Shown here: positions 1 through 64,000 of the stretch, one piece after another | How the letters are laid out: every line of letters begins with the position of its first letter | How positions within the stretch are numbered: the first letter of the stretch is position 1 | DNA from: a virus | Lineage: Duplodnaviria; Caudoviricetes | Direction: 5' to 3' (one strand) | Length of the DNA stretch: 64,000 nucleotides | IMG/VR virus record: IMGVR_UViG_3300009031_000221 | Location: 256,001 to 320,000 of that record | Made by a program: the position numbers and the translations under genes | Notes under the pieces: generated by a model | What the model saw: the letters and a program-made list of their open reading frames with translations, nothing else | What the model was told of the DNA's origin: nothing | Database searches by the model: none

Positions 1-70
1 GGACTAGGAGGGAATCGAACCCTCTGACAATCGGCTTGCAAAGCCAATCCGCTACCCCATAGCCAAGCCC
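1..70 (-). tRNA. tRNA-Ala(TGC), 3' end cut by window edge
   Basis: T-arm GAGGG-TTCGATT-CCCTC; anticodon arm TTGGC-TTTGCAA-GCCGA; G3:U70 Ala identity pair; D-arm and position 8 atypical. Confidence 0.65.
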
Positions 71-74
71 ATTG

Positions 75-151
75 TGGCGACCCCTGTCGGACTTGAACCG
101 ACGACCTCTTGCGTGACAGGCAAGCGTTCTAACCAACTGAACTAAGAGGCC
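75..151 (-). tRNA. tRNA-Asp(GTC)
   Basis: Canonical cloverleaf, loop CT-GTC-AC, encoded CCA. Confidence 0.95.
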
Positions 152-159
152 ACAATAAG

Positions 160-303
160 ATCCCTGACTGGATTCGCACCAGCGACCTCCCACGCCATAG
201 TGGGTGCTCCACGGTCTATTCCTTCCATGGGGGCACTTGGTTACCCTTCCGCGGTGGCAACCGAATACATTCCCATTTATTGAATGCCTTGAGCTACAAG
301 GAT
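160..303 (-). ncRNA. tRNA-like RNA with 81-nt structured D-loop and abnormal anticodon loop
   Basis: Acceptor ATCCTTG/CAGGGAT, TA linker, D-stem GCTC/GAGC enclosing 210-290, stem CCCAC-TATGGC-GTGGG, T-arm GCTGG-TGCGAAT-CCAGT. Confidence 0.7.
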
Positions 304-378
304 GGCGGGACTGAAGGGAATCGAACCCTCCTACAGGACATAGACAGTGTCCTTGCGCCTCCAGGCGCATCCAATCCC
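303..378 (-). tRNA. tRNA-Asp(GTC), atypical isodecoder
   Basis: Cloverleaf with CCA, loop CT-GTC-TA (U37), G8, extendable D-stem TGCGCC/GGCGCA, G73. Confidence 0.8.
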
Positions 379-528
379 ATTAACGGACAAAGCTCATCGG
401 CCAATGGCCTTGCTTCTACAGTAGCTTCACCGACTGGTTCCACTTTTCGTCTTGCAAATTTGCAACCTTGCAAGATACCCATCAAGGCACCGTCATGCCT
501 TCTGAGTGACGGCGTCGTGTCGTCACCT

Positions 529-603
529 TGGTGGGCTAGGTGGGAGTCGAACCCACAACCAACAGATTAAGAGTCTGCTGCGCTTCCATTGCGCCACTAG
601 CCC
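529..603 (-). tRNA. tRNA-Lys(CTT)
   Basis: Cloverleaf, loop CT-CTT-AA, CCA. Confidence 0.95.
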
Positions 604-608
604 GATTT

Positions 609-688
609 GAGTAGCCTAGGTCCTCAGTTATTCCCCGGCAAGGAGGACTCCACGCACGCCGGGTCAGATGTTTCCATGTCAACTACTC
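609..688 (-). ncRNA. Putative structured RNA with H-type pseudoknot inside a closing stem
   Basis: GAGTAG/CTACTC closing stem, ATG-GAAA-CAT hairpin, interleaved CCCGGC/GCCGGG and GTCCTC/GAGGAC stems. Confidence 0.45.
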
Positions 689-723
689 TGGGAAACCCAC
701 GCATCGTTCTCCCCTTGAGGAGA

Positions 724-800
724 TGGTCGGGGTAGCCGGATTCGAACCGACGACCACTAGTCCCCCAGACTAGTGCGCTACCAGGCTGCGCTATACCCCG
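724..800 (-). tRNA. tRNA-Pro(GGG)
   Basis: Cloverleaf, loop CT-GGG-GG, CCA. Confidence 0.95.
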
Positions 801-937
801 ATTTCCAGCTATCCCTCGTGTACTTTGAGATCAAGTTTATCATGGGAGGTCGGGCGTAAAGGCCTCTCCTCTTCGATTCACCCCCATGCACGGAAGCTTC
901 AACCCATGACACCGCTCTGGATTAGCGGCTAGATCCT

Positions 938-965
938 ATCTACGCACTTCTCGGGGAAAGTAAGT
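938..965 (-). promoter_or_regulatory. Phage promoter motif CTTAC-N15-CGTAG
   Basis: ACTTAC-TTTCCCCGAGAAGTG-CGTAGAT, inside the tRNA array. Confidence 0.75.
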
Positions 966-983
966 CCCCGGTTATCATTAAAG

Positions 984-1056
984 TCAGGGTAGAGAGACTC
1001 GAACTCTCAACCTCATGCTCCCAAAGCACGCGCTCTACCATTAGAGCTACACCCTG
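984..1056 (-). tRNA. tRNA-Pro(TGG)
   Basis: Cloverleaf, loop TT-TGG-GA, no encoded CCA. Confidence 0.93.
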
Positions 1057-1068
1057 ATTACTAGACAC

Positions 1069-1142
1069 GGCTGGGGATGAAGGGGTCGAACCTTCGTTGA
1101 CGGAGTCAGAGTCCGGTGTCCTGCCAATTAGACGAATCCCCA
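1069..1142 (-). tRNA. tRNA-Gln(CTG)
   Basis: Cloverleaf, U1:A72, loop CT-CTG-AC. Confidence 0.92.
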
Positions 1143-1152
1143 ATTAACTTAG

Positions 1153-1227
1153 CGCCCACGGCAGGATTCGAACCTGCAACCTCTTCGTTCGTAGCGAAAC
1201 GCTCTATCCAAATTGAGCTACGCGGGC
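1153..1227 (-). tRNA. tRNA-Arg(ACG)
   Basis: Cloverleaf, loop CT-ACG-AA. Confidence 0.95.
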
Positions 1228-1329
1228 ATATTTCCCGGCTTTCCATCGTGGCCCCGAAGGAAAGTGTGCTGTAAGTGGTCCCCGGCAATGACCGGTTCAA
1301 GACTTCAAGCATCGCCCCGGGTGGGCGAT

Positions 1330-1403
1330 TGGCTGGGGTACAAGGATTCGAACCTTGATAAGCAGCTTCAAAGGCTGCCGTCCTGCCGTTAGACGATACC
1401 CCA
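1330..1403 (-). tRNA. tRNA-Gln(TTG)
   Basis: Cloverleaf, loop CT-TTG-AA, CCA. Confidence 0.95.
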
Positions 1404-1410
1404 ATATCTA

Positions 1411-1484
1411 GGTACTCCCAGAAAGAATTGAACTTTCATCGCACGGATATCAGCCGTGTGCTCTAACCGTTGAGCTATGAGAGC
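1411..1484 (-). tRNA. tRNA-Ile(GAT)
   Basis: Cloverleaf, loop CT-GAT-AT. Confidence 0.92.
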
Positions 1485-1485
1485 A

Positions 1486-1560
1486 TGGAGCGGACGACCG
1501 GATTCGAACCGGCGACGATTTGCTTGGCAAGCAAGAATTCTACCACTGAATTACGTCCGC
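1486..1560 (-). tRNA. tRNA-Gly(GCC)
   Basis: Cloverleaf, loop TT-GCC-AA, CCA. Confidence 0.95.
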
Positions 1561-1571
1561 ATAGACTAACC

Positions 1572-1647
1572 GGTCGGAATGACAGGATTTGAACCTGCGA
1601 CCCCTTGCTCCCGAAGCAAGTGCGCTACCAGGCTGCGCTACATTCCG
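1572..1647 (-). tRNA. tRNA-Pro(CGG)
   Basis: Cloverleaf, loop TT-CGG-GA. Confidence 0.95.
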
Positions 1648-1650
1648 ATT

Positions 1651-1699
1651 ACAGGTTCCGTACCCTCACGAGTATGGGTCGGGCTACCTGTGGAGCCCG
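1651..1699 (-). ncRNA. Perfect 6+6 bp H-type pseudoknot with hairpin in loop 3
   Basis: CGGGCT/AGCCCG and ACAGGT/ACCTGT interleaved, ACCC/GGGT hairpin; ends 3 nt before tRNA-Pro(CGG). Confidence 0.5.
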
Positions 1700-1708
1700 T
1701 CACAACAA

Positions 1709-1784
1709 GGCTTACCCTGTGGGAATTGAACCCACGACATCCTGCTTAACAGGCAGGCACTCTGACCATCTGAGTTAAGGGCAA
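1709..1784 (-). tRNA. tRNA-Asn(GTT) copy A
   Basis: Cloverleaf, loop CT-GTT-AA, G73. Confidence 0.92.
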
Positions 1785-1841
1785 GATCGCTAGGTATTTA
1801 TCAGGGTGTCTCAAACTGCCGAGATTCGATGGCAGGAGATA

Positions 1842-2498
1842 TTATCCGCGACGGTCACGATTGATGTCCGACCAGTTACTGGGGCCTGCCATTTCTTCTT
1901 CGTCTTTCTTCTTGATATTCCATTTCGCAGGTTCTTCTTTACGAGAAGGCGCTTTGACAGGTTCGTCCTTCTTAGCCCTATCCGCCCGTTCCTTCTTCAT
2001 CTTTTCTTCGTGTGCCTTGTCGCTCTGTTGCGCCTTGTCCTTCTCCGACCATTCCTTCACATCCGCATCTTCCTTCTCGCGTTGATTCTTGCGCTCGATC
2101 TTATCAACATGGTCCTTGGCGAGGTCTTGCGGGCTCTTCTTAGCAGGAGAACCTTTACCCTTTGCTTTGTCAATCAGACTCTGCGGGGGCTTCTTGGCAC
2201 CCGGATGATCCTTCCGATACTTCTCCCAAAGACCCTTCAAACCATCTAGCAGCCCGGCATCATGCCCGGCAGCGGCAAGCCGAAGTGCCGGGATGATCTC
2301 ACTACGTGACGCAGGGTTTTCGCTAGCTACCCTAAGCAGGGATTCACGGAGGAATGCAACCTTGTTGCCGTCATCATCCTTGTCATCTTCACCCTTGTCA
2401 TCTTCACCTGCCGCCTGACGGAGGATGGGGATTAGATGCTGGCGGATGCCGTCGGGATTGTTATGTGCTAGGCGTAACAACTTGTTATAAAGTGACAT
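1842..2498 (-). CDS. Hypothetical protein with duplicated helical motif and Lys/Glu/Asp-rich tail
   Basis: LLRLAHNNPDGIRQHLIPILRQAA and LLRVASENPASRSEIIPALRLAAA; GGAGA upstream of ATG 2498. Confidence 0.75.
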   Translation of the reverse strand: MSLYNKLLRLAHNNPDGIRQHLIPILRQAAGEDDKGEDDKDDDGNKVAFLRESLLRVASENPASRSEIIPALRLAAAGHDAGLLDGLKGLWEKYRKDHPGAKKPPQSLIDKAKGKGSPAKKSPQDLAKDHVDKIERKNQREKEDADVKEWSEKDKAQQSDKAHEEKMKKERADRAKKDEPVKAPSRKEEPAKWNIKKKDEEEMAGPSNWSDINRDRRG

Positions 2499-2600
2499 TT
2501 CCAAATCTCCGAATTAGGGGCATCCCCATAGCAATCATTGCTGACGGGCATGTTACCTACTGGATGTTTGGCTATAGAACCAATATTGATTCTAGGGAAA

Positions 2601-2676
2601 GGCTTACCGGGTGGGACTCGAACCCACGCACAACAAGGTAACAGCTTGTCGCTCTAAGCCGCTGAGCTACCGGTAA
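2601..2676 (-). tRNA. tRNA-Asn(GTT) copy B
   Basis: Cloverleaf, loop CT-GTT-AC, G73. Confidence 0.92.
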
Positions 2677-2692
2677 AACGTAGGCTTAATGC

Positions 2693-3178
2693 CTACAAGG
2701 TGGTGTGCATGCCCGCATGTACCTCACGGTGACATCGACAGCATAGCAAGTCACATTTGTCTAGTTCCGGTTGGACGGTATCCCATTTGCGATAATGCCC
2801 GTCCCGGAGGGAGAATTCCTTGCCCGCCGGATCCCTATGATGGAAATCCAGGGCGTCCGCACACTTAGCATAACCACATATTGAACATTTCCCGCCTTTG
2901 TATGCTAGAGCCTTAGCCTTGATTCGTTTCCGTACTTCCATGACGGAACATGAATTGCACTTGGATCGGTGGTGTCCCGCTGTGCGATTATAGATGTAAT
3001 CTCGATCACATGTAAGGCAATGTCCAACCGTATCGTCATCCATAGGAATCCGTCTCGTATTGTGCATCCCGAAAGGTGAACACGTGAGGCAATACTTTCG
3101 ACTGCCCAGATTCTTGTGTTCGCCGTTAATGATGACTCGAGTTGAGAACTTCGAGTCGCATTTCTTACATACAGGCAT
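2693..3178 (-). CDS. HNH endonuclease (Cys-rich, free-standing)
   Basis: CSICGY..C...LDFHH.DP..KEF...ELDKCDLLCCRCHREVH. Confidence 0.85.
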   Translation of the reverse strand: MPVCKKCDSKFSTRVIINGEHKNLGSRKYCLTCSPFGMHNTRRIPMDDDTVGHCLTCDRDYIYNRTAGHHRSKCNSCSVMEVRKRIKAKALAYKGGKCSICGYAKCADALDFHHRDPAGKEFSLRDGHYRKWDTVQPELDKCDLLCCRCHREVHAGMHTTL

Positions 3179-3237
3179 GATTGTAACCTAGTGCTATAGG
3201 TTAGCACACTCTAGCACTAGGCATAAACAATCTATTG

Positions 3238-3311
3238 GGCTCCCCGAGTAGGATTCGAACCTACGACTATCGCATTAACAGTGCGAAACTCTACCGCTGA
3301 GTTATCGGGGA
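3238..3311 (-). tRNA. tRNA-Asn(GTT) copy C
   Basis: Cloverleaf, loop CT-GTT-AA, G73. Confidence 0.95.
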
Positions 3312-3317
3312 ATCTTA

Positions 3318-3394
3318 TGGGGTGAACGATGGGATTTGAACCCACGTAGACTTGCTTCACAGGCAAGCGCCTAAACCACTCGGCCACGTTCACC
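3318..3394 (-). tRNA. tRNA-His(GTG)
   Basis: Encoded G-1 opposite C73, loop CT-GTG-AA, CCA. Confidence 0.95.
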
Positions 3395-3858
3395 ACCGGA
3401 GGCGATGACCGTTCCTGGCTTAATACCAGGATACAGGTCATCGCCTTCGCAATGCTCATTCAGTTGTCAAAGACCCTGTCCCGTTTCCGGTGGCAGAGCG
3501 TATTCAACCCCCGTAGAGATTGAATGACGGGGCGTTGCACAAAGCATTGCCCCAAAATGCAGAAGGCCGGGTCACCCTTCGGTGCCCGGCCTTCATCGCG
3601 TCCAGTTGTTCGGACGGTCAGAAGTCGGGCACCCCCTGCGGATCGCGGCCATTACCTTCGCGGGCGGCGGCGACTGCATGTGGGGGATTGCTAATCCCTT
3701 CGGGCATGCAGGGGCAAGCAAGTACGACAATCGCTTTCGCGACGGTCGTTTGCTGCTTTTGCCTATGTCCGAAGAATACAAACACGTCCTACTCCTAAAT
3801 GTCCCACCGGCATTCCGGTGTTCAACATGACCCATGAAGCCAGTTCCCCGTGGGGATG
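3395..3858 (-). ncRNA. Large unidentified structured RNA or leader at the head of the tRNA array
   Basis: Dense hairpins, e.g. 14-bp stem 3562-3594; GAAA and GAAG tetraloops on minus strand; no credible ORF. Confidence 0.5.
3469..3483 (-). promoter_or_regulatory. rrn-type boxA-like antitermination element
   Basis: TCTTTGACAACTGAA on the transcribed strand, 75 nt before the first tRNA. Confidence 0.55.
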
Positions 3859-59189: not shown

Positions 59190-60068
59190 TTGGCTGGCGA
59201 AATCAAAGGAACCCAGATTAGCAATGAATCCATTGCTAAAACACACATGACTGTTGGGTTGCAGGGTGAACTTGATGCCAAGGCATTGGATTCGGCTGTC
59301 CTTAAGAAGGACGGATCCGTTGTTCTGACTGGGCCGTTGGCGGGAATCGCGGGTGTAGGGCCTACAGACCTCGTCACTAAATCCCAGTTGGATAGTGTTG
59401 CCGGCGGATCCCTAATCCGCAATCAAGTGCTAGATTCCCTGGCTGCTCAACCGGGACACGTTGAAGGCGCTCGATACCTTGCCACTGCTACAGCAGGCGA
59501 TTGGGTCATCAATCACCTCTATACGTCTCTTTTGGGCGTGTGGGTGGATGATGGCGCACCGGTTGTTGGTTGGCTGGTCTATGACATCGCGGCGGGGGAT
59601 TGGAAATATTTCGATGGTGTTAATTGGATACCGAATTTCCAAGGGTTTCAAGTAGTTCATGCAGGGAACGGTCTAACAGAAGACGGTGCCAAAAACTTCA
59701 ACGTGAATGTAGACGGCACTTCCATTCAGATCACCGGCGGCATCCTGGAAATTGTACCCAGTACCACAGCGCCCTTTGAGGCTATTATTGAATCCGTTCT
59801 AAGCCCTCACACGGCAATTGAATCTATGGTTCTTGTCAATCCTCCGGTTGCTATTGCTTTCACTGTCAACCTGCCGGCGGGGGCAACACATGCTACGAAG
59901 CGTGTAACCGTCAAAGATAAGAAAGGGATGTGCTCGGATATAACTACCCAAATCACCATCAATGCTTTTGCCGGGGAAACCATTGACGGGGATGCAAGCA
60001 TACAGATTGACAACAATAAAGCGGCTGTGTCGATGGTGTTTAGTGGCACCGAATGGAGTGTGATATGA
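59190..60068 (+). CDS. Putative tail-fibre/virion protein (DUF2793-like middle, tail-associated C-terminal domain)
   Basis: GARYL..A.GDW...GWLVYD.....YFDG.NW; TVNLP.......VTVKD.G......ITI....ETIDG...W.V. Confidence 0.65.
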   Translation: MAGEIKGTQISNESIAKTHMTVGLQGELDAKALDSAVLKKDGSVVLTGPLAGIAGVGPTDLVTKSQLDSVAGGSLIRNQVLDSLAAQPGHVEGARYLATATAGDWVINHLYTSLLGVWVDDGAPVVGWLVYDIAAGDWKYFDGVNWIPNFQGFQVVHAGNGLTEDGAKNFNVNVDGTSIQITGGILEIVPSTTAPFEAIIESVLSPHTAIESMVLVNPPVAIAFTVNLPAGATHATKRVTVKDKKGMCSDITTQITINAFAGETIDGDASIQIDNNKAAVSMVFSGTEWSVI

Positions 60069-61255
60069 GTTACCCAGGTTCTAACGTTCGTGTGGCTCAA
60101 TATGATGGTTCGATGTTTGGGGGTACTCGTGCCCACCAAGATTTAGCTGTATTTGAACGATTGCATGACTATCCGGGCGTTGCAACTGCATATGACACGG
60201 AATCCTACGGATTTGATACGGGTGGTGTCGTGGGTACGGCAACACATGTACCTAACACAGGATCCATTCGTCTGGCTTTGTCTGATGCTACGGTATCTAA
60301 GAAAGCTCGTTTACGGTCACACGATATCATCCGGTATCAACCGGGATGCATGCCTATTGTTCAAATGACGGGGGTGTCATCATCCAATGCAGGCATGATT
60401 TTGAAGTGTATTCGTCGGACATCCACGTCGGGTGTTCCTGTGGATAACGTTGAAGCGACCATTGCAGGCATTGATGCTGCAACCGAGAATAGGTATGAAC
60501 TTCGGTATGCCTACCTTGGTGTTCAAGGTGTTCAGTATTACGTCAATGGAAATCTGGTCCAAAACTCCATTTTGGCGGGAACATTGACGGTTCCTTTCAT
60601 GAAGACCCCACATTTGCCCATATCAGTTGAGATCCAAACTTTGGTCGATGGTTCACAAGTAATTCGACTTGGGGTTTTCGATGACTCTGATGGGTTGTTC
60701 TTTGAATGGTCTCGTGCCGTTGGGTCTGCCGCTGCATTTTCCTATGACTACAAATGTTCGTCAGGTCGATTGATTGGGGGGTCGGTATATCCGTTCCATA
60801 CTTATGGGATGACCAGGGCTACAACAGGTACGGGGGCTGCAATGATCCCATTGTTCAGTATTCGCCCAAAGGCGACTTTGAACGGTATCCCCTCCCGTGT
60901 TCAAATATTCCCGACTCAGGTTTCTTTCTTTAGTGAGTCTCAACCCGGTGCTTTGGCAATCATTATGAACACAACCTTAACAGGGCCTACATGGGTATCC
61001 GCTTCCCCTAGCCCTGCCGTGGAAGTGGATGTTGCCGCTACTCTTGTGGCCGGGGGGACTACTTTGTGGCAAGTAGGGCAAGGTGCCAATCAACAATACA
61101 CCTATGATCTATCCAAGCTATTCACCTTGATTGGTATCAAACTTCGTCACCAAGCCTTCACGGGGACTGAGGATATCCTAACTTTCGCCGTTCAACGGGA
61201 AGGGGCTGTCAATTTTGATCCCCGTGTGACAGTAACCTGGGACGAATTGCGTTAG
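60065..61255 (+). CDS. Putative virion structural protein
   Basis: 396-aa beta-rich ORF, ATGA-coupled to tail-like gene. Confidence 0.65.
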   Translation: MSYPGSNVRVAQYDGSMFGGTRAHQDLAVFERLHDYPGVATAYDTESYGFDTGGVVGTATHVPNTGSIRLALSDATVSKKARLRSHDIIRYQPGCMPIVQMTGVSSSNAGMILKCIRRTSTSGVPVDNVEATIAGIDAATENRYELRYAYLGVQGVQYYVNGNLVQNSILAGTLTVPFMKTPHLPISVEIQTLVDGSQVIRLGVFDDSDGLFFEWSRAVGSAAAFSYDYKCSSGRLIGGSVYPFHTYGMTRATTGTGAAMIPLFSIRPKATLNGIPSRVQIFPTQVSFFSESQPGALAIIMNTTLTGPTWVSASPSPAVEVDVAATLVAGGTTLWQVGQGANQQYTYDLSKLFTLIGIKLRHQAFTGTEDILTFAVQREGAVNFDPRVTVTWDELR

Positions 61256-62063: not shown

Positions 62064-62307
62064 GGACTAGTTCAAGGGCAACCTTCTCTTTCGTCATGGG
62101 CTCTTCTTTGTAATCCTCAATGTACTTGTCAACCTCATTGCACAGGTCATCGAAGGACAAGGACTTTGTGGAATCGAGCATGTGGACGATGAATCCGCAC
62201 TTGTCCCACGCATCGGATACCGCATAGTTTATGCCAGTCCCGTAGATTCTAAAATGCGGTTTCAAATCGCCACTGATATCATGTGTGGAACGGATGAACT
62301 TCGCCAT
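62023..62307 (-). CDS. Hypothetical protein
   Basis: TAATG-coupled ORF. Confidence 0.6.
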   Translation of the reverse strand: MAKFIRSTHDISGDLKPHFRIYGTGINYAVSDAWDKCGFIVHMLDSTKSLSFDDLCNEVDKYIEDYKEEPMTKEKVALELVLALEWGFASTVEE

Positions 62308-62519
62308 TAGTCTAACTCGCTATGGGGGATGAGTTTAGGTATCACTTGCTGTGCCATGAATATCCAAAGACCTTCAGGCCAGCAATCTAAATCCCCATCT
62401 GGGAGGTCTGAATTAACTGGGCATGGCCAGTACTTCGTTTTGACCCTTTGATCGATGGTGTCCGTATCCAGCATCTCTATTGTGCGTGTACTGGATGATT
62501 GATAGATTACAAGGAACAT
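62307..62519 (-). CDS. Small paralogue of next ORF
   Basis: LPDGDLDCWPEGLWI...V.P. Confidence 0.6.
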   Translation of the reverse strand: MFLVIYQSSSTRTIEMLDTDTIDQRVKTKYWPCPVNSDLPDGDLDCWPEGLWIFMAQQVIPKLIPHSELD

Positions 62520-62758
62520 CAGGGTACCTTCCAGGTCGTGATCATCTGCACCGGACGGGGGAGTACCAAGTCACCCTTGATGATCCATACGCCCAAAGGC
62601 CAGGATTCAATGTCACCGTGAGGTAGGGTGTCACTGCAGAACTTCTGTTCCCCATCCATACCCCACTCATTGAGCAAGGATTCAAGCTTGGTTTGATCCA
62701 TATGCTTGATGGTGAGTTCGTCGGGAGTCCGTTCGATGACAACATAATTTAGCCGCAT
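62519..62758 (-). CDS. Small paralogue of previous ORF
   Basis: LPHGDIESWPLGVWI...V.P. Confidence 0.6.
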   Translation of the reverse strand: MRLNYVVIERTPDELTIKHMDQTKLESLLNEWGMDGEQKFCSDTLPHGDIESWPLGVWIIKGDLVLPRPVQMITTWKVP

Positions 62759-62806
62759 GACGCTTGTTCCTTTTTAGCGGGTATGGTTCTAGGCATGGAG
62801 GTGCCT

Positions 62807-63814
62807 ATGTCTGATCTACCCAATATCATCGAATTCGCAGCTAGCGTTCTCGATATTCATCTAACACCCGTTCAATGTGTCATATTGAAAGCACATTACG
62901 GTATCCCGTTGGATACAGAGACCCTGTTTGAGATATGTACGCCCCAACTGGCGACGGGGCAATTTATCGTAAACACCTGGACGGAAGCAAAGTACTTGGA
63001 ATACTTGTACTATGAAGGCAGGTCGAATATCCGAGAGGTAGACCACGAACGGCGGGAACTCGTCTTGGCGAGCGGCAGACGGAGTGGCAAGGGGATGCTT
63101 GGGTGCATCATTGCTGCCTATGAGGCATACAAGTTGGCATGGAAGGGCGATCCGCAGGCCTACTACGGTTTGCCCCCAAGCACCGTCCTACAGATTCTGT
63201 TGGTGGGTACCGACAAGGATCAGGCGGGGCTCATTCTTCATGAGGTCAATGGATTCCTCCGTAGCACTCCCCTGAATGACCATCGTGCGAACAATACGCA
63301 GACCTACATGCGATTCCAGACACGGAAGGACATTGATACCTACGGGTCATGGGTGGATGACTTGACGGCAAAGGCCTCTATCAAGGTGACTGCAACGTCT
63401 AGCAATCACCAAGGGCTTCGTGGAGCCGGCAATATTTGTGTCATTTTAGATGAGTTGGCACATTACAAGGAAGCCGAGAACGTCTACCATGCCATCATGC
63501 CTTCGATCATGCTCTTCTCCAAGAAGGCGGAGGACAAGCGCACACCCGTTGGCTCATGTGAAGGGCGTTTGGTAAGCCTGTCAACCCCGAATGGGAAGCG
63601 TGGCATGTTCCACAAGTTGTTCATGGCGGGATTCAATGAAAAGCGTAGCGACAACATGCTGTGCTTGCAAATCCCGACTTGGGAAGCGAATCCGTCTATT
63701 CCGATGGAATTCTACACGGAAATGTACGAACGTCAGCCCAAGTACTTTGGCGTGGAATACGGGGCACACTTCGTAGACCTGTGTTGCCCTCAGTGCGGGT
63801 GCGAATTGGCCTAG
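62807..63814 (+). CDS. Terminase large subunit-like protein, ATPase domain only
   Basis: LTPVQ..IL, LVLASGRRSGKG (Walker A), VILDELAH (Walker B), LSTP.G..G.F, PTWE.NP, F..EYGA.F, then stop. Confidence 0.8.
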   Translation: MSDLPNIIEFAASVLDIHLTPVQCVILKAHYGIPLDTETLFEICTPQLATGQFIVNTWTEAKYLEYLYYEGRSNIREVDHERRELVLASGRRSGKGMLGCIIAAYEAYKLAWKGDPQAYYGLPPSTVLQILLVGTDKDQAGLILHEVNGFLRSTPLNDHRANNTQTYMRFQTRKDIDTYGSWVDDLTAKASIKVTATSSNHQGLRGAGNICVILDELAHYKEAENVYHAIMPSIMLFSKKAEDKRTPVGSCEGRLVSLSTPNGKRGMFHKLFMAGFNEKRSDNMLCLQIPTWEANPSIPMEFYTEMYERQPKYFGVEYGAHFVDLCCPQCGCELA

Positions 63815-63999
63815 GCCTTATTCGGATTATTCCGAGTGCACCATGCCAGGTATTCATCAAAATTGATTCCCGTAATTTGTTGGATAAGCACGCTAACGTC
63901 TCCCAGATGAGCGTCACCAAGAATCATCATGATCTTGTAGATTTGATCCTTGGTTTCTAGCTGCGGTTGGATTGCGGCGCACCATGCTTTCTTGATCGT
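63811..63999 (-). CDS. 3' end of a convergent hypothetical gene (partial)
   Basis: Open frame TIKKAWCAAI...NNPNKA*; stop shares CTAG with terminase-like stop. Confidence 0.55.
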   Translation of the reverse strand, partial: TIKKAWCAAIQPQLETKDQIYKIMMILGDAHLGDVSVLIQQITGINFDEYLAWCTRNNPNKA

Positions 64000-64000
64000 A

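What the first reader, a model, noticed from the sequence alone, without database searches (positions are those of the whole stretch)
62807..63814. Terminase large subunit with ATPase domain only
Seen: Walker A, Walker B and coupling motif present. The ORF ends in CCPQCGC right after the ATPase domain, and a convergent gene follows immediately, so there is no adjacent nuclease half. It is not in a packaging or head gene context. Known: Avs/STAND immune receptors recognise terminase ATPase domains. Inference: a paralogous decoy or dominant-negative packaging modulator. This is one of three core-protein fragments in this region.
Basis: partly seen in the sequence, partly recalled or inferred. 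Interest (0 to 1): 0.6.

Follow-up and report, generated by a model that had tools for sequence, protein, structure and literature searches.

The report
Nuclease-less spare copy of phage terminase
A 536-kb groundwater phage keeps, far from its real DNA-packaging gene, an old and well-preserved second copy of only the ATP-binding half of that enzyme. This kind of accessory gene has been seen in other phages, and its role is still unknown.

Summary
ORF 62807-63814 (+) encodes 335 aa behind a GGAGG ribosome-binding site. It is a complete TerL ATPase domain: the AlphaFold model has pLDDT 95.9 and its best fold match is the P74-26 TerL ATPase. It stops 13 residues after the domain, in CCPQCGCELA, and its stop codon overlaps that of a convergent gene.

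One correction: Walker A reads GRRSGKG and lacks the Mg-binding Ser/Thr. The arginine finger, Walker B DE and the STP coupling motif are kept.

The phage has a normal 653-aa TerL 165 kb away. No other nuclease half exists in the genome. Synonymous sites between the two copies are saturated (pS 0.82, pN 0.34), so the truncation is old and the gene is under selection.

Its nearest kin are other short forms with the same C-terminal CPxCG knuckle. They sit among about 46 ATPase-only sequence clusters, of which 16 keep all five catalytic residues, against 47 of 49 full-length TerLs.

Short copies are sporadic: 2 of 25 related huge-phage records carry them. In two phages they lie directly upstream of terL.

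My best reading is a non-motor, ATP-binding partner of the terminase. The decoy idea is untested and has a logical weakness.

This scan has already reported similar truncated TerL paralogs on other DNA, and phage T4 vs.8 is a published analogue.

The parts
62807..63814 (+). Short TerL gene: 335 aa plus stop, ATPase domain only
   Evidence: ORF list. E 3e-100 to the genome's own TerL. pLDDT 95.9. Best fold match is the P74-26 TerL ATPase.
62797..62803 (+). Ribosome-binding site GGAGGTG, 3 nt before the ATG at 62807
   Evidence: Read from the sequence. The 335-aa gene call P0001 uses this start.
63074..63094 (+). Deviant Walker A, GRRSGKG (residues 90-96). The P-loop Arg pair and Lys are kept; the Mg-binding Ser/Thr is replaced by Gly96.
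   Evidence: Alignments. Column counts: 49 of 49 full-length relatives have S/T, against 35 of 46 short-clade members.
63419..63421 (+). Arg205 in GLRG, the position equivalent to the trans-acting arginine finger R139 of P74-26 TerL
   Evidence: In the profile alignment to 4ZNI and 4ZNJ (the R139A mutant), the family's LRG lies over the chain's NLRG / NLAG.
63440..63454 (+). Walker B, VILDE (Asp215, Glu216)
63581..63589 (+). Coupling (C) motif, S259-T260-P261
63782..63802 (+). C-terminal cysteine knuckle CCPQCGC (Cys326, 327, 330, 332), in place of the linker and nuclease domain
   Evidence: Sequence. The same CPxCG ending occurs in P0013, P0069, P0081, P0101, P0042 and P0048 and in L131. Confidence is low in the model from about residue 321 (10-residue block means 74 and 48; residues 333-335 below 50).
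63811..64000 (-). Convergent downstream gene. It is 139 aa and runs to 64230, beyond the window. Its stop codon overlaps that of the short TerL gene.
   Evidence: It matches phrog_20502, of unknown function. It is absent from 25 related records.
62519..62758 (-). Divergent upstream gene (79 aa, unknown function), which leaves only a 48-nt intergenic gap
   Evidence: It is a tandem paralogue of the 70-aa gene at 62307-62519.

Best explanation
Shown: the gene is an old, selectively maintained paralog of the phage's own large terminase. It keeps the whole ATPase domain and has replaced the linker and nuclease domain with a 13-residue tail that carries a cysteine knuckle. It groups with many ATPase-only 'short TerL' proteins of uncultured huge phages. 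These co-exist with a normal TerL, evolve faster, and often lose hydrolysis residues while keeping the phosphate-binding loop.

Inferred: the protein still binds ATP but hydrolyses it poorly, because it lacks the Mg-coordinating Ser/Thr. It therefore probably works as a non-motor partner of the packaging machinery. It could sit in or on the TerL ring, or bind the TerS-like partner through the N-terminal region it shares with TerL. That would tune or gate packaging. It cannot itself cut DNA.

The C-terminal CPxCG knuckle has no conserved partner ligands inside the protein. It most likely binds a metal together with a second chain, giving either self-dimerisation or docking to another protein.
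For: - Fold and identity.
- A full-length TerL exists elsewhere and there is no second nuclease domain.
- The divergence is old and under constraint. pS is 0.82 (saturated), pN is 0.34, and there is no gene-conversion tract. The protein carries the consensus residue at all 28 invariant or nearly invariant family columns.
- Nearest kin are CPxCG-tailed short forms, with support 96/96 and 96. The tail itself was not among the tree's columns, so it is independent support.
- In the FastTree, a weakly supported (73) group of 48 sequence clusters holds 46 short forms.
- All five catalytic residues are intact in 16 of 46 short-clade members against 47 of 49 full-length TerLs (Fisher p 9e-11). The first two P-loop residues (Gly, Arg) are invariant in both groups and the second Arg nearly so.
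- Terminal branches are longer in the short clade, median 0.87 against 0.53 (p 1e-9).
- In the short clade the N-terminal PVQxxILKxxYGxPLD stretch and the IPTWExNP stretch are as conserved as in TerL, or more so. The catalytic core is less conserved.
- In two other phages, short copies lie co-oriented and directly upstream of terL. In L069 they sit between a gene homologous to the one upstream of this phage's terL and terL itself. The second case is L149.
Against: - No biochemical or interaction data exist, and these tools cannot model complexes.
- In this genome the gene is 165 kb from terL, on the opposite strand to both neighbours, in a genome-specific accessory region. Nothing ties its expression to packaging. 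The phage's common promoter motif is absent upstream.
- Four of the five catalytic residues are intact, including the arginine finger, so real ATPase activity is not excluded.
- An AU test could not reject a tree that joins this protein to the resident TerL group (log-likelihood difference 1.73, p 0.47). Membership of the short clade therefore rests partly on the shared tail and a shared deletion after Walker B.
- The gene is missing from all 11 near-complete relatives examined, so it is dispensable for packaging as such.
Confidence: 0.45

Rival explanations
1. Immune decoy or other anti-defence protein. On this reading it is a stable, ATP-loaded mimic of the terminase ATPase domain that soaks up or misleads terminase-sensing receptors (Avs1-3, Upx), so they do not fire on the real TerL.
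For: - It lies in a genome-specific accessory region of small unknown genes.
- Its distribution among relatives is sporadic: 2 of 25 records.
- It evolves fast and loses hydrolysis residues while keeping the phosphate-binding loop.
- Avs2 recognises the ATPase domain with its bound ATP. The authors speculate that stand-alone look-alikes may be anti-defence proteins (PMC13601566).
Against: - The only tested stand-alone TerL-ATPase look-alike, T4 vs.8, is toxic with EcAvs2. It activates the sensor rather than blocking it. A faithful mimic should trigger the receptor.
- Short copies inside packaging operons directly upstream of terL are not where anti-defence genes usually sit.
- The host and its defences are unknown. 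A full-text search found no paper with a terminase-mimic decoy as its subject; the two papers that hold all four search terms are a catalogue of anti-defence proteins and a review, and I did not read them.
Confidence: 0.15
2. Active, independent ATP-driven DNA motor used outside packaging, for example DNA segregation, ejection or repair in a very large genome. On this reading the Gly at the Walker A Ser/Thr position is tolerated.
For: - The Walker A Lys, both P-loop Arg, the arginine finger, Walker B DE and the coupling motif are all kept.
- Its terminal branch is short for the clade: 0.42-0.44 against a median of 0.87.
- In record G018 a short copy lies between an actin-like Volactin gene and, by my reading of its motifs, a metallophosphoesterase-like gene. 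Neither Pfam nor any other search confirmed the second one.
Against: - From general knowledge of P-loop NTPases, loss of the Mg-coordinating hydroxyl usually cripples hydrolysis.
- Two thirds of the clade have lost at least one catalytic residue. A motor function is therefore not what the clade as a whole conserves.
Confidence: 0.15
3. Weapon against competing phages: a hydrolysis-poor subunit that co-assembles with and poisons the terminase of co-infecting relatives, a form of superinfection exclusion.
For: It has the same features as a dominant-negative subunit, and its carriage is sporadic and strain-specific.
Against: It is closest in sequence to this phage's own TerL group (53% identity), so self-poisoning would be a problem. 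There is no direct evidence.
Confidence: 0.08
4. Functionless remnant of a partial terL duplication that is on its way to being lost.
For: It is dispensable in relatives and has one catalytic substitution.
Against: - The 335-codon frame is intact although synonymous sites are saturated.
- It carries the consensus residue at all 28 invariant or nearly invariant family columns.
- The model has pLDDT 95.9.
- The gene has a strong ribosome-binding site.
- The same truncated architecture with the same tail is kept in distant relatives.
Confidence: 0.04
5. Split terminase: this ATPase works with a nuclease half that is encoded separately.
For: None beyond the truncation itself.
Against: tblastn with the full TerL finds only the terL gene. 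A 42-sequence nuclease-domain HMM run over all six frames also finds only terL. Its single marginal hit, at 9.5 kb, has only weak PHROG matches, all confined to its C-terminal ~35 residues (two families of unknown function and, faintly, an Arc-like repressor family); it shows no nuclease match. The phage already has a complete TerL.
Confidence: 0.02

Closest known systems
Large terminase ATPase domain of tailed phages (structure: Thermus phage P74-26 TerL, PDB 4ZNK / 4ZNL; precomputed Pfam label PF27249, MJ0330_N)
   Same: It has the same fold (Foldseek E 9e-13). The P-loop, arginine-finger position, Walker B, coupling motif and the EYGAEF domain end are all alignable. PF27249 is precomputed for it and its relatives.
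   Different: There is no nuclease domain. The Walker A Ser/Thr is Gly. The gene lies outside the packaging module. It carries a cysteine-knuckle tail. The phage has a separate complete TerL.
Phage T4 vs.8, a stand-alone TerL-ATPase-like protein (Nat Commun 2026, PMC13601566)
   Same: It is a stand-alone copy of the terminase ATPase domain, encoded away from terL, restricted to certain phage lineages, and of unknown function.
   Different: I take vs.8 to derive from the T4-type TerL, whereas this protein derives from the PF27249-type TerL of huge phages, so the origin looks independent; I did not test homology to vs.8. vs.8 is reported with conserved Walker A and B motifs. Here the Walker A Ser/Thr is lost and a CPxCG tail is added. 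Avs2 activation was shown for vs.8 and is untested here.
Truncated or 'dead' TerL-ATPase paralogs noted earlier in this scan (beside terL in jumbo phages, P1-like PacB paralogs, phage 186 W-like genes)
   Same: They share the general architecture, co-exist with a real TerL, frequently lose catalytic residues, and have no known role (AI notes). I saw the 'directly upstream of terL' arrangement myself in L069 and L149.
   Different: Those cases come from other TerL lineages. This copy is remote from terL and keeps four of five catalytic residues. It belongs to a subgroup with a conserved C-terminal CPxCG knuckle. I did not check the named phage records myself.
Non-catalytic paralogous subunits of ring ATPases (clamp-loader delta/delta', F1 alpha). 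This is an analogy from general knowledge.
   Same: These are paralogs of a ring ATPase that keep nucleotide binding but lose hydrolysis, and that serve structural or regulatory roles.
   Different: Nothing yet shows that the short TerL enters a ring with TerL.

Membership tests
Large terminase subunit (TerL) | ASCE P-loop ATPase domain of the terminase type | tested here: met
   pLDDT 95.9. The top 25 or so PDB fold matches are terminase large subunits. PHROG terminase families match at 3e-12.
Large terminase subunit (TerL) | Canonical Walker A ending in GK[ST] | tested here: not met
   The motif is GRRSGKG. All 49 full-length relatives have S or T at that column.
Large terminase subunit (TerL) | Walker B Asp-Glu, arginine finger and coupling motif | tested here: met
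   VILDE, the Arg of GLRG aligned to P74-26 R139, and STP.
Large terminase subunit (TerL) | C-terminal RNase H-like nuclease domain | tested here: not met
   The protein ends 13 residues after the ATPase domain. The nuclease HMM finds only the 653-aa TerL in the genome.
Large terminase subunit (TerL) | Encoded in the packaging/head module next to portal and small-terminase-type genes | tested here: not met
   It lies 165 kb from terL. Its neighbours are small unknown genes on the other strand.
ATPase-only 'short TerL' paralog clade of huge phages (defined here) | The protein ends within about 60 residues of the EYGAxF domain end, at a true stop codon | tested here: met
   Stop codons were verified on DNA in the window and in L069, L111, L131 and L149.
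ATPase-only 'short TerL' paralog clade of huge phages (defined here) | Groups with other short forms in an ATPase-domain tree | tested here: inconclusive
   It sits in a 4-member clade of CPxCG short forms at 96/96 and 96, and in a 37-row clade at 97. An AU test does not reject joining it to the resident TerL group (p 0.47). The shared tail and the shared deletion after Walker B favour membership.
ATPase-only 'short TerL' paralog clade of huge phages (defined here) | Co-exists with a complete TerL in the same genome | tested here: met
   Seen in G000, and also in G014, G018 and L149.
T4 vs.8-type terminase look-alikes / Avs2 activators | Binds and activates, or blocks, a terminase-sensing Avs receptor | not testable with these tools
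   This needs co-expression or complex modelling. Only the paper's data on vs.8 are available.
T4 vs.8-type terminase look-alikes / Avs2 activators | Sequence descent from the T4-type (Terminase_6N) TerL | not tested
   Its relatives carry PF27249. The phage-record search found no T4-like phages among the matches. I made no direct comparison with vs.8.

The most novel reading that the evidence does not exclude
The short TerL proteins may be a so far undescribed class of non-catalytic, nucleotide-binding subunits of huge-phage packaging motors. On this reading they share the TerL N-terminal docking region. In place of the nuclease they carry interchangeable small C-terminal adaptors: a CPxCG metal knuckle, a roughly 45-residue GxDGIxVxK...GGWxVTTG tail, or a helical tail. 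These would make the terminase a heteromeric, tunable machine. The copy in this window would be one such subunit that has moved out of the packaging operon.
Probability: 0.25. Interest if true: 0.65.

Novelty: new variant of a known kind. Interest (0 to 1): 0.4.

Why it matters
Stand-alone copies of the terminase ATPase domain keep turning up in phages, and nobody knows what they do. They matter for two open questions: how the packaging motor is regulated, and how bacterial receptors that sense terminase are triggered or evaded.

This case adds three things. First, there are many such proteins in huge phages (a group of 46 sequence clusters in the tree). Second, there is a statistical signature: they keep the phosphate loop and the N-terminal region while losing hydrolysis residues. 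Third, a subgroup has a conserved cysteine knuckle in place of the nuclease. Together these give concrete, testable handles on function.

Tried and rejected
I could not fetch the contigs of the closest CPxCG relatives: P0172 on a 511-kb contig, P0168 and P0101.

Searches that led nowhere:
- Single-protein scans of viral contigs with P0172 and P0168 found nothing.
- A back-translated WExxP...GAxF...CPxCG DNA pattern found nothing in viral contigs.
- The same pattern in metagenome contigs gave one true relative among 19 hits, L131.
- A scan with another short subgroup (A3) returned almost only full-length TerLs, plus L149 and L142.
- The alignments A4 and A5 of two further short subgroups were built but not used for scans.
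- The 'empty site' test failed. The downstream neighbour is absent from all 25 relatives, so the region is genome-specific.
- NCBIfam gave no family.
- Literature searches for 'truncated large terminase' found nothing specific. The search for terminase decoys returned a catalogue of anti-defence proteins and a review, which I did not read.

Expression signals: I found no sigma-70-like promoter or terminator for the gene. The phage's CTTACTT-N12-GCGTAG promoter is not upstream of it. The upstream 80 nt has no repeated motif elsewhere in the genome. Base composition is ordinary: GC 0.517 against 0.524 for the genome.

Readings rejected:
- Split gene or trans-acting nuclease.
- Recent truncation or gene conversion.
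- An intramolecular four-ligand zinc site. The extra Cys in GSCEGR is shared only with P0013, not with the rest of the subgroup.

The first AU test, which held the whole short clade together, did not finish in time.

Full report
**What is there**

The window is positions 256001-320000 of a 536,053-bp virus record. Earlier notes of this scan call it a groundwater phage.

The frame 62783..63814 (+) is open for 343 aa. GGAGGTG at 62797-62803 precedes the ATG at 62807, and the public gene call P0001 uses that start.

It is the only plus-strand gene between two runs of minus-strand genes. The upstream gene starts 48 nt away, at 62758. The downstream gene (63811-64230) overlaps it by 4 nt, so the two stop codons share a palindromic CCTAGG.

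**Identity**

- PHROG terminase families match at E 3e-12. Pfam's TerL_ATPase matches just below its cut-off.
- The public protein collection labels the protein and its relatives PF27249, which the protein atlas names MJ0330_N.
- An AlphaFold2 model built on 113 aligned relatives has mean pLDDT 95.9 and pTM 0.93. Confidence falls only in the last 15 or so residues.
- Foldseek's best matches are the P74-26 TerL ATPase domain (E 9e-13), then T4 gp17, Sf6 gp2, HK97 and D6E terminases.
- A profile alignment to P74-26 places the family's GRRxGK[TS] on that protein's Walker A. It places LRG on the arginine finger, because the R139A mutant chain reads LAG at that spot. It also places ILDE on Walker B, S[ST]P on the coupling motif, and EYGAEF on the last conserved element of the ATPase domain.

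The window protein has all of these except one. Its Walker A is GRRSGKG, with Gly where the Mg-coordinating Ser/Thr should be.

**Is it a fragment of a split or broken gene?**

No. The genome has a complete 653-aa TerL at 151771-153732 (-). The family profile matches solved TerL nuclease domains (5TGE, 5M1F) over the C-terminal profile positions that the full-length members supply, this one among them.

The short protein aligns to TerL residues 23-383 at 47% identity and stops where the linker begins. tblastn with the full TerL finds no other copy of the nuclease half. An HMM of the nuclease half, built from 42 relatives and run over all six frames, also finds none. Its one marginal hit, 309 kb away, has only weak PHROG matches confined to its C-terminal ~35 residues (two families of unknown function and, faintly, an Arc-like repressor family), and none to a nuclease.

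**Age and selection**

Between the two copies in this genome, 82% of synonymous sites differ, which is saturation. Only 34% of non-synonymous sites differ. No window of the alignment shows raised synonymous identity, so there has been no recent duplication or gene conversion.

The short protein carries the consensus residue at all 28 invariant or nearly invariant columns of the 113-sequence family alignment.

**Relatives**

An exhaustive search of 1.84 billion cluster representatives gave 1,059 hits. Of the 118 best hits that cover the whole domain, 63 end within 60 residues of the domain end.

In a FastTree of these 118, 46 short forms fall on one side of the midpoint root, in a weakly supported (73) group of 48 sequence clusters with one 'mid' form and P0016. 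P0016 carries an unrelated C-terminal domain instead of the nuclease. The full-length TerLs lie on the other side.

The window protein's nearest kin are P0042, P0081 and P0101. Support is 96 SH-aLRT in a 60-taxon tree and 96/96 in a 36-taxon tree with bootstraps. All three also end in a CxxC knuckle, as do P0013, P0069, P0048 and the metagenome locus L131. The tail was not among the columns used for the trees, so it supports the grouping independently. A shared 5-6-residue deletion after Walker B points the same way.

One caveat applies. An AU test does not reject a tree in which the window protein is joined to the resident full-length TerL group (log-likelihood difference 1.73, p 0.47). The ATPase-domain phylogeny alone therefore does not settle its place.

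**What the short clade conserves**

| Measure | Short clade | Full-length TerLs |
|---|---|---|
| All five catalytic residues intact (Walker A Lys and Ser/Thr, arginine finger, Walker B Asp and Glu) | 16 of 46 | 47 of 49 (Fisher p 9e-11) |
| First P-loop Gly and Arg | invariant | invariant |
| Second P-loop Arg | 44 of 46 | 47 of 49 |
| Median terminal branch length | 0.87 | 0.53 (p 1e-9) |

The window protein's own branch is short, at 0.42-0.44.

By region, the N-terminal PVQxxILKxxYGxPLD stretch and the IPTWExNP stretch are as conserved in short forms as in TerL, or more so. The catalytic core is less conserved. The family therefore looks like one that keeps nucleotide binding and some binding surfaces but not motor chemistry.

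Tails vary within the clade. Some members have none. Eight of 48 have a CxxC knuckle; one of these, P0059, has a full CxxC...CxxC ribbon. Others have a roughly 45-residue GxDGIxVxK...GGWxVTTG tail, or a helical tail.

**Distribution and context**

Of 25 related huge-phage records searched whole, all have a full-length TerL and only two have short copies. None of the 11 records estimated at least 90% complete has one.

- **G014 (locus L069):** two different short copies lie co-oriented and abutting, directly upstream of an intein-bearing terL. The portal gene lies downstream. Just upstream of the short copies is a 225-aa gene that is 41% identical to the gene upstream of terL in this genome.
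- **L149:** one short copy again lies 15 nt upstream of an intein-bearing terL, with the portal gene downstream.
- **G018:** the short copy is 54 kb from terL, between an actin-like Volactin gene and a gene that I read from its motifs as a metallophosphoesterase. Its Walker B Glu is lost.
- **L131:** a CPxCG short form lies on the opposite strand to its neighbours, as in this window, and has Ser in place of the Walker B Asp.
- **This genome:** the surrounding genes have no matches in the 25 relatives and no family assignments. The exception is two plus-strand genes at 59190-61255 that have tail or virion-structural PHROG matches.

No promoter was recognised. The phage's own CTTACTT-N12-GCGTAG motif occurs 18 times exactly in the window but not upstream of this gene.

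**Mechanism**

Shown: this is an ancient, maintained, nuclease-less paralog of the resident TerL. It lacks the Walker A hydroxyl and carries a C-terminal cysteine knuckle. It belongs, by tail and by best tree, to a group of short TerL forms that tends to lose catalysis.

Inferred: it binds ATP but turns it over poorly. It acts by binding partners of the terminase, namely the TerL ring, the TerS-like protein, or DNA. The knuckle has no conserved intramolecular partner ligands, so it probably completes a metal site with a second chain. I put this reading at about 0.45.

The decoy idea (0.15) fits the accessory location and the sporadic distribution. It also fits the published fact that Avs2 reads the ATP-loaded ATPase domain. 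However, the only tested look-alike, T4 vs.8, activates Avs2 rather than inhibiting it (PMC13601566), and operon positions beside terL argue for a packaging link.

An autonomous motor (0.15), a weapon against competing phages (0.08), a dying remnant (0.04) and a split terminase (0.02) are less likely, for the reasons given under rivals.

**Novelty**

Stand-alone TerL-ATPase paralogs are already known. T4 vs.8 is published, and this scan holds 33 notes on similar genes in other genomes, several with follow-ups. The kind is therefore not new.

What is new here:
- the independent origin from the PF27249-type TerL of huge phages;
- the number of short forms, in a group of 46 sequence clusters;
- the quantified loss of catalytic residues alongside a retained P-loop;
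- the conserved CPxCG tail.

Cultured relatives are distant. The best is Tunturiibacter phage Tunturi_5 TerL at 27% identity. The closest GenBank record is an unannotated 485-kb uncultured phage.

This limited the context analysis of the nearest short relatives.

Noticed in passing
window 62307-62758 (-): Two adjacent small genes (70 and 79 aa) just upstream of the short TerL gene are tandem paralogues. They share an LPxGDxxxWPxGxWI motif (pairwise E 8e-8). Neither matches any family.
   Followed up: partly
window 59190-61255 (+): Two co-oriented genes have PHROG matches: baseplate or tail-fibre for the 292-aa gene (E 2e-5) and 'virion structural protein' phrog_1645 for the 400-aa gene (E 5e-21). 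They lie far from the main head and packaging module.
   Followed up: no
window 63809-63816: The short TerL gene and the convergent 139-aa gene end on overlapping stop codons inside a palindromic CCTAGG. No terminator was predicted between them, so transcripts of the two strands should run into each other.
   Followed up: no
L069 8450-11656; L149 7569-10901; records G012, G015, G017: Several related huge phages have a terL of 1041-1110 aa that is interrupted by an intein. P0024 carries Pfam Intein_splicing, inserted right after the Walker A GK. In both loci where a short copy lies directly upstream of terL (L069 and L149), that terL carries an intein.
   Followed up: partly
L111 (record G018) 41-3721: Here a short TerL copy with Walker B LDG lies between an actin-like Volactin gene (PF25216, E 2e-62) and a 444-aa protein with metallophosphoesterase-like motifs (GDxxSG, GNHG, GHFH, by eye). 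This hints at a DNA-handling context other than packaging.
   Followed up: partly
P0016 (543 aa, metagenome protein): This member of the short-form clade has an unrelated 197-residue C-terminal domain where TerL has its nuclease, and a Walker B reading FDD. Pfam finds nothing in it.
   Followed up: no
L142 3965-6267: A 507-aa protein joins a roughly 200-residue N-terminal extension to a short TerL ATPase domain. It is followed by a 257-aa gene with no nuclease or PHROG match.
   Followed up: partly
G000:C1:151084-154911 (L002), outside the window: The resident full-length TerL has a roughly 34-residue insertion in its N-terminal region that close full-length relatives lack. The 226-aa gene upstream of it is conserved (41% identity) upstream of the terL region in G014. 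It matches no family, so it is only a positional candidate for the small terminase.
   Followed up: partly
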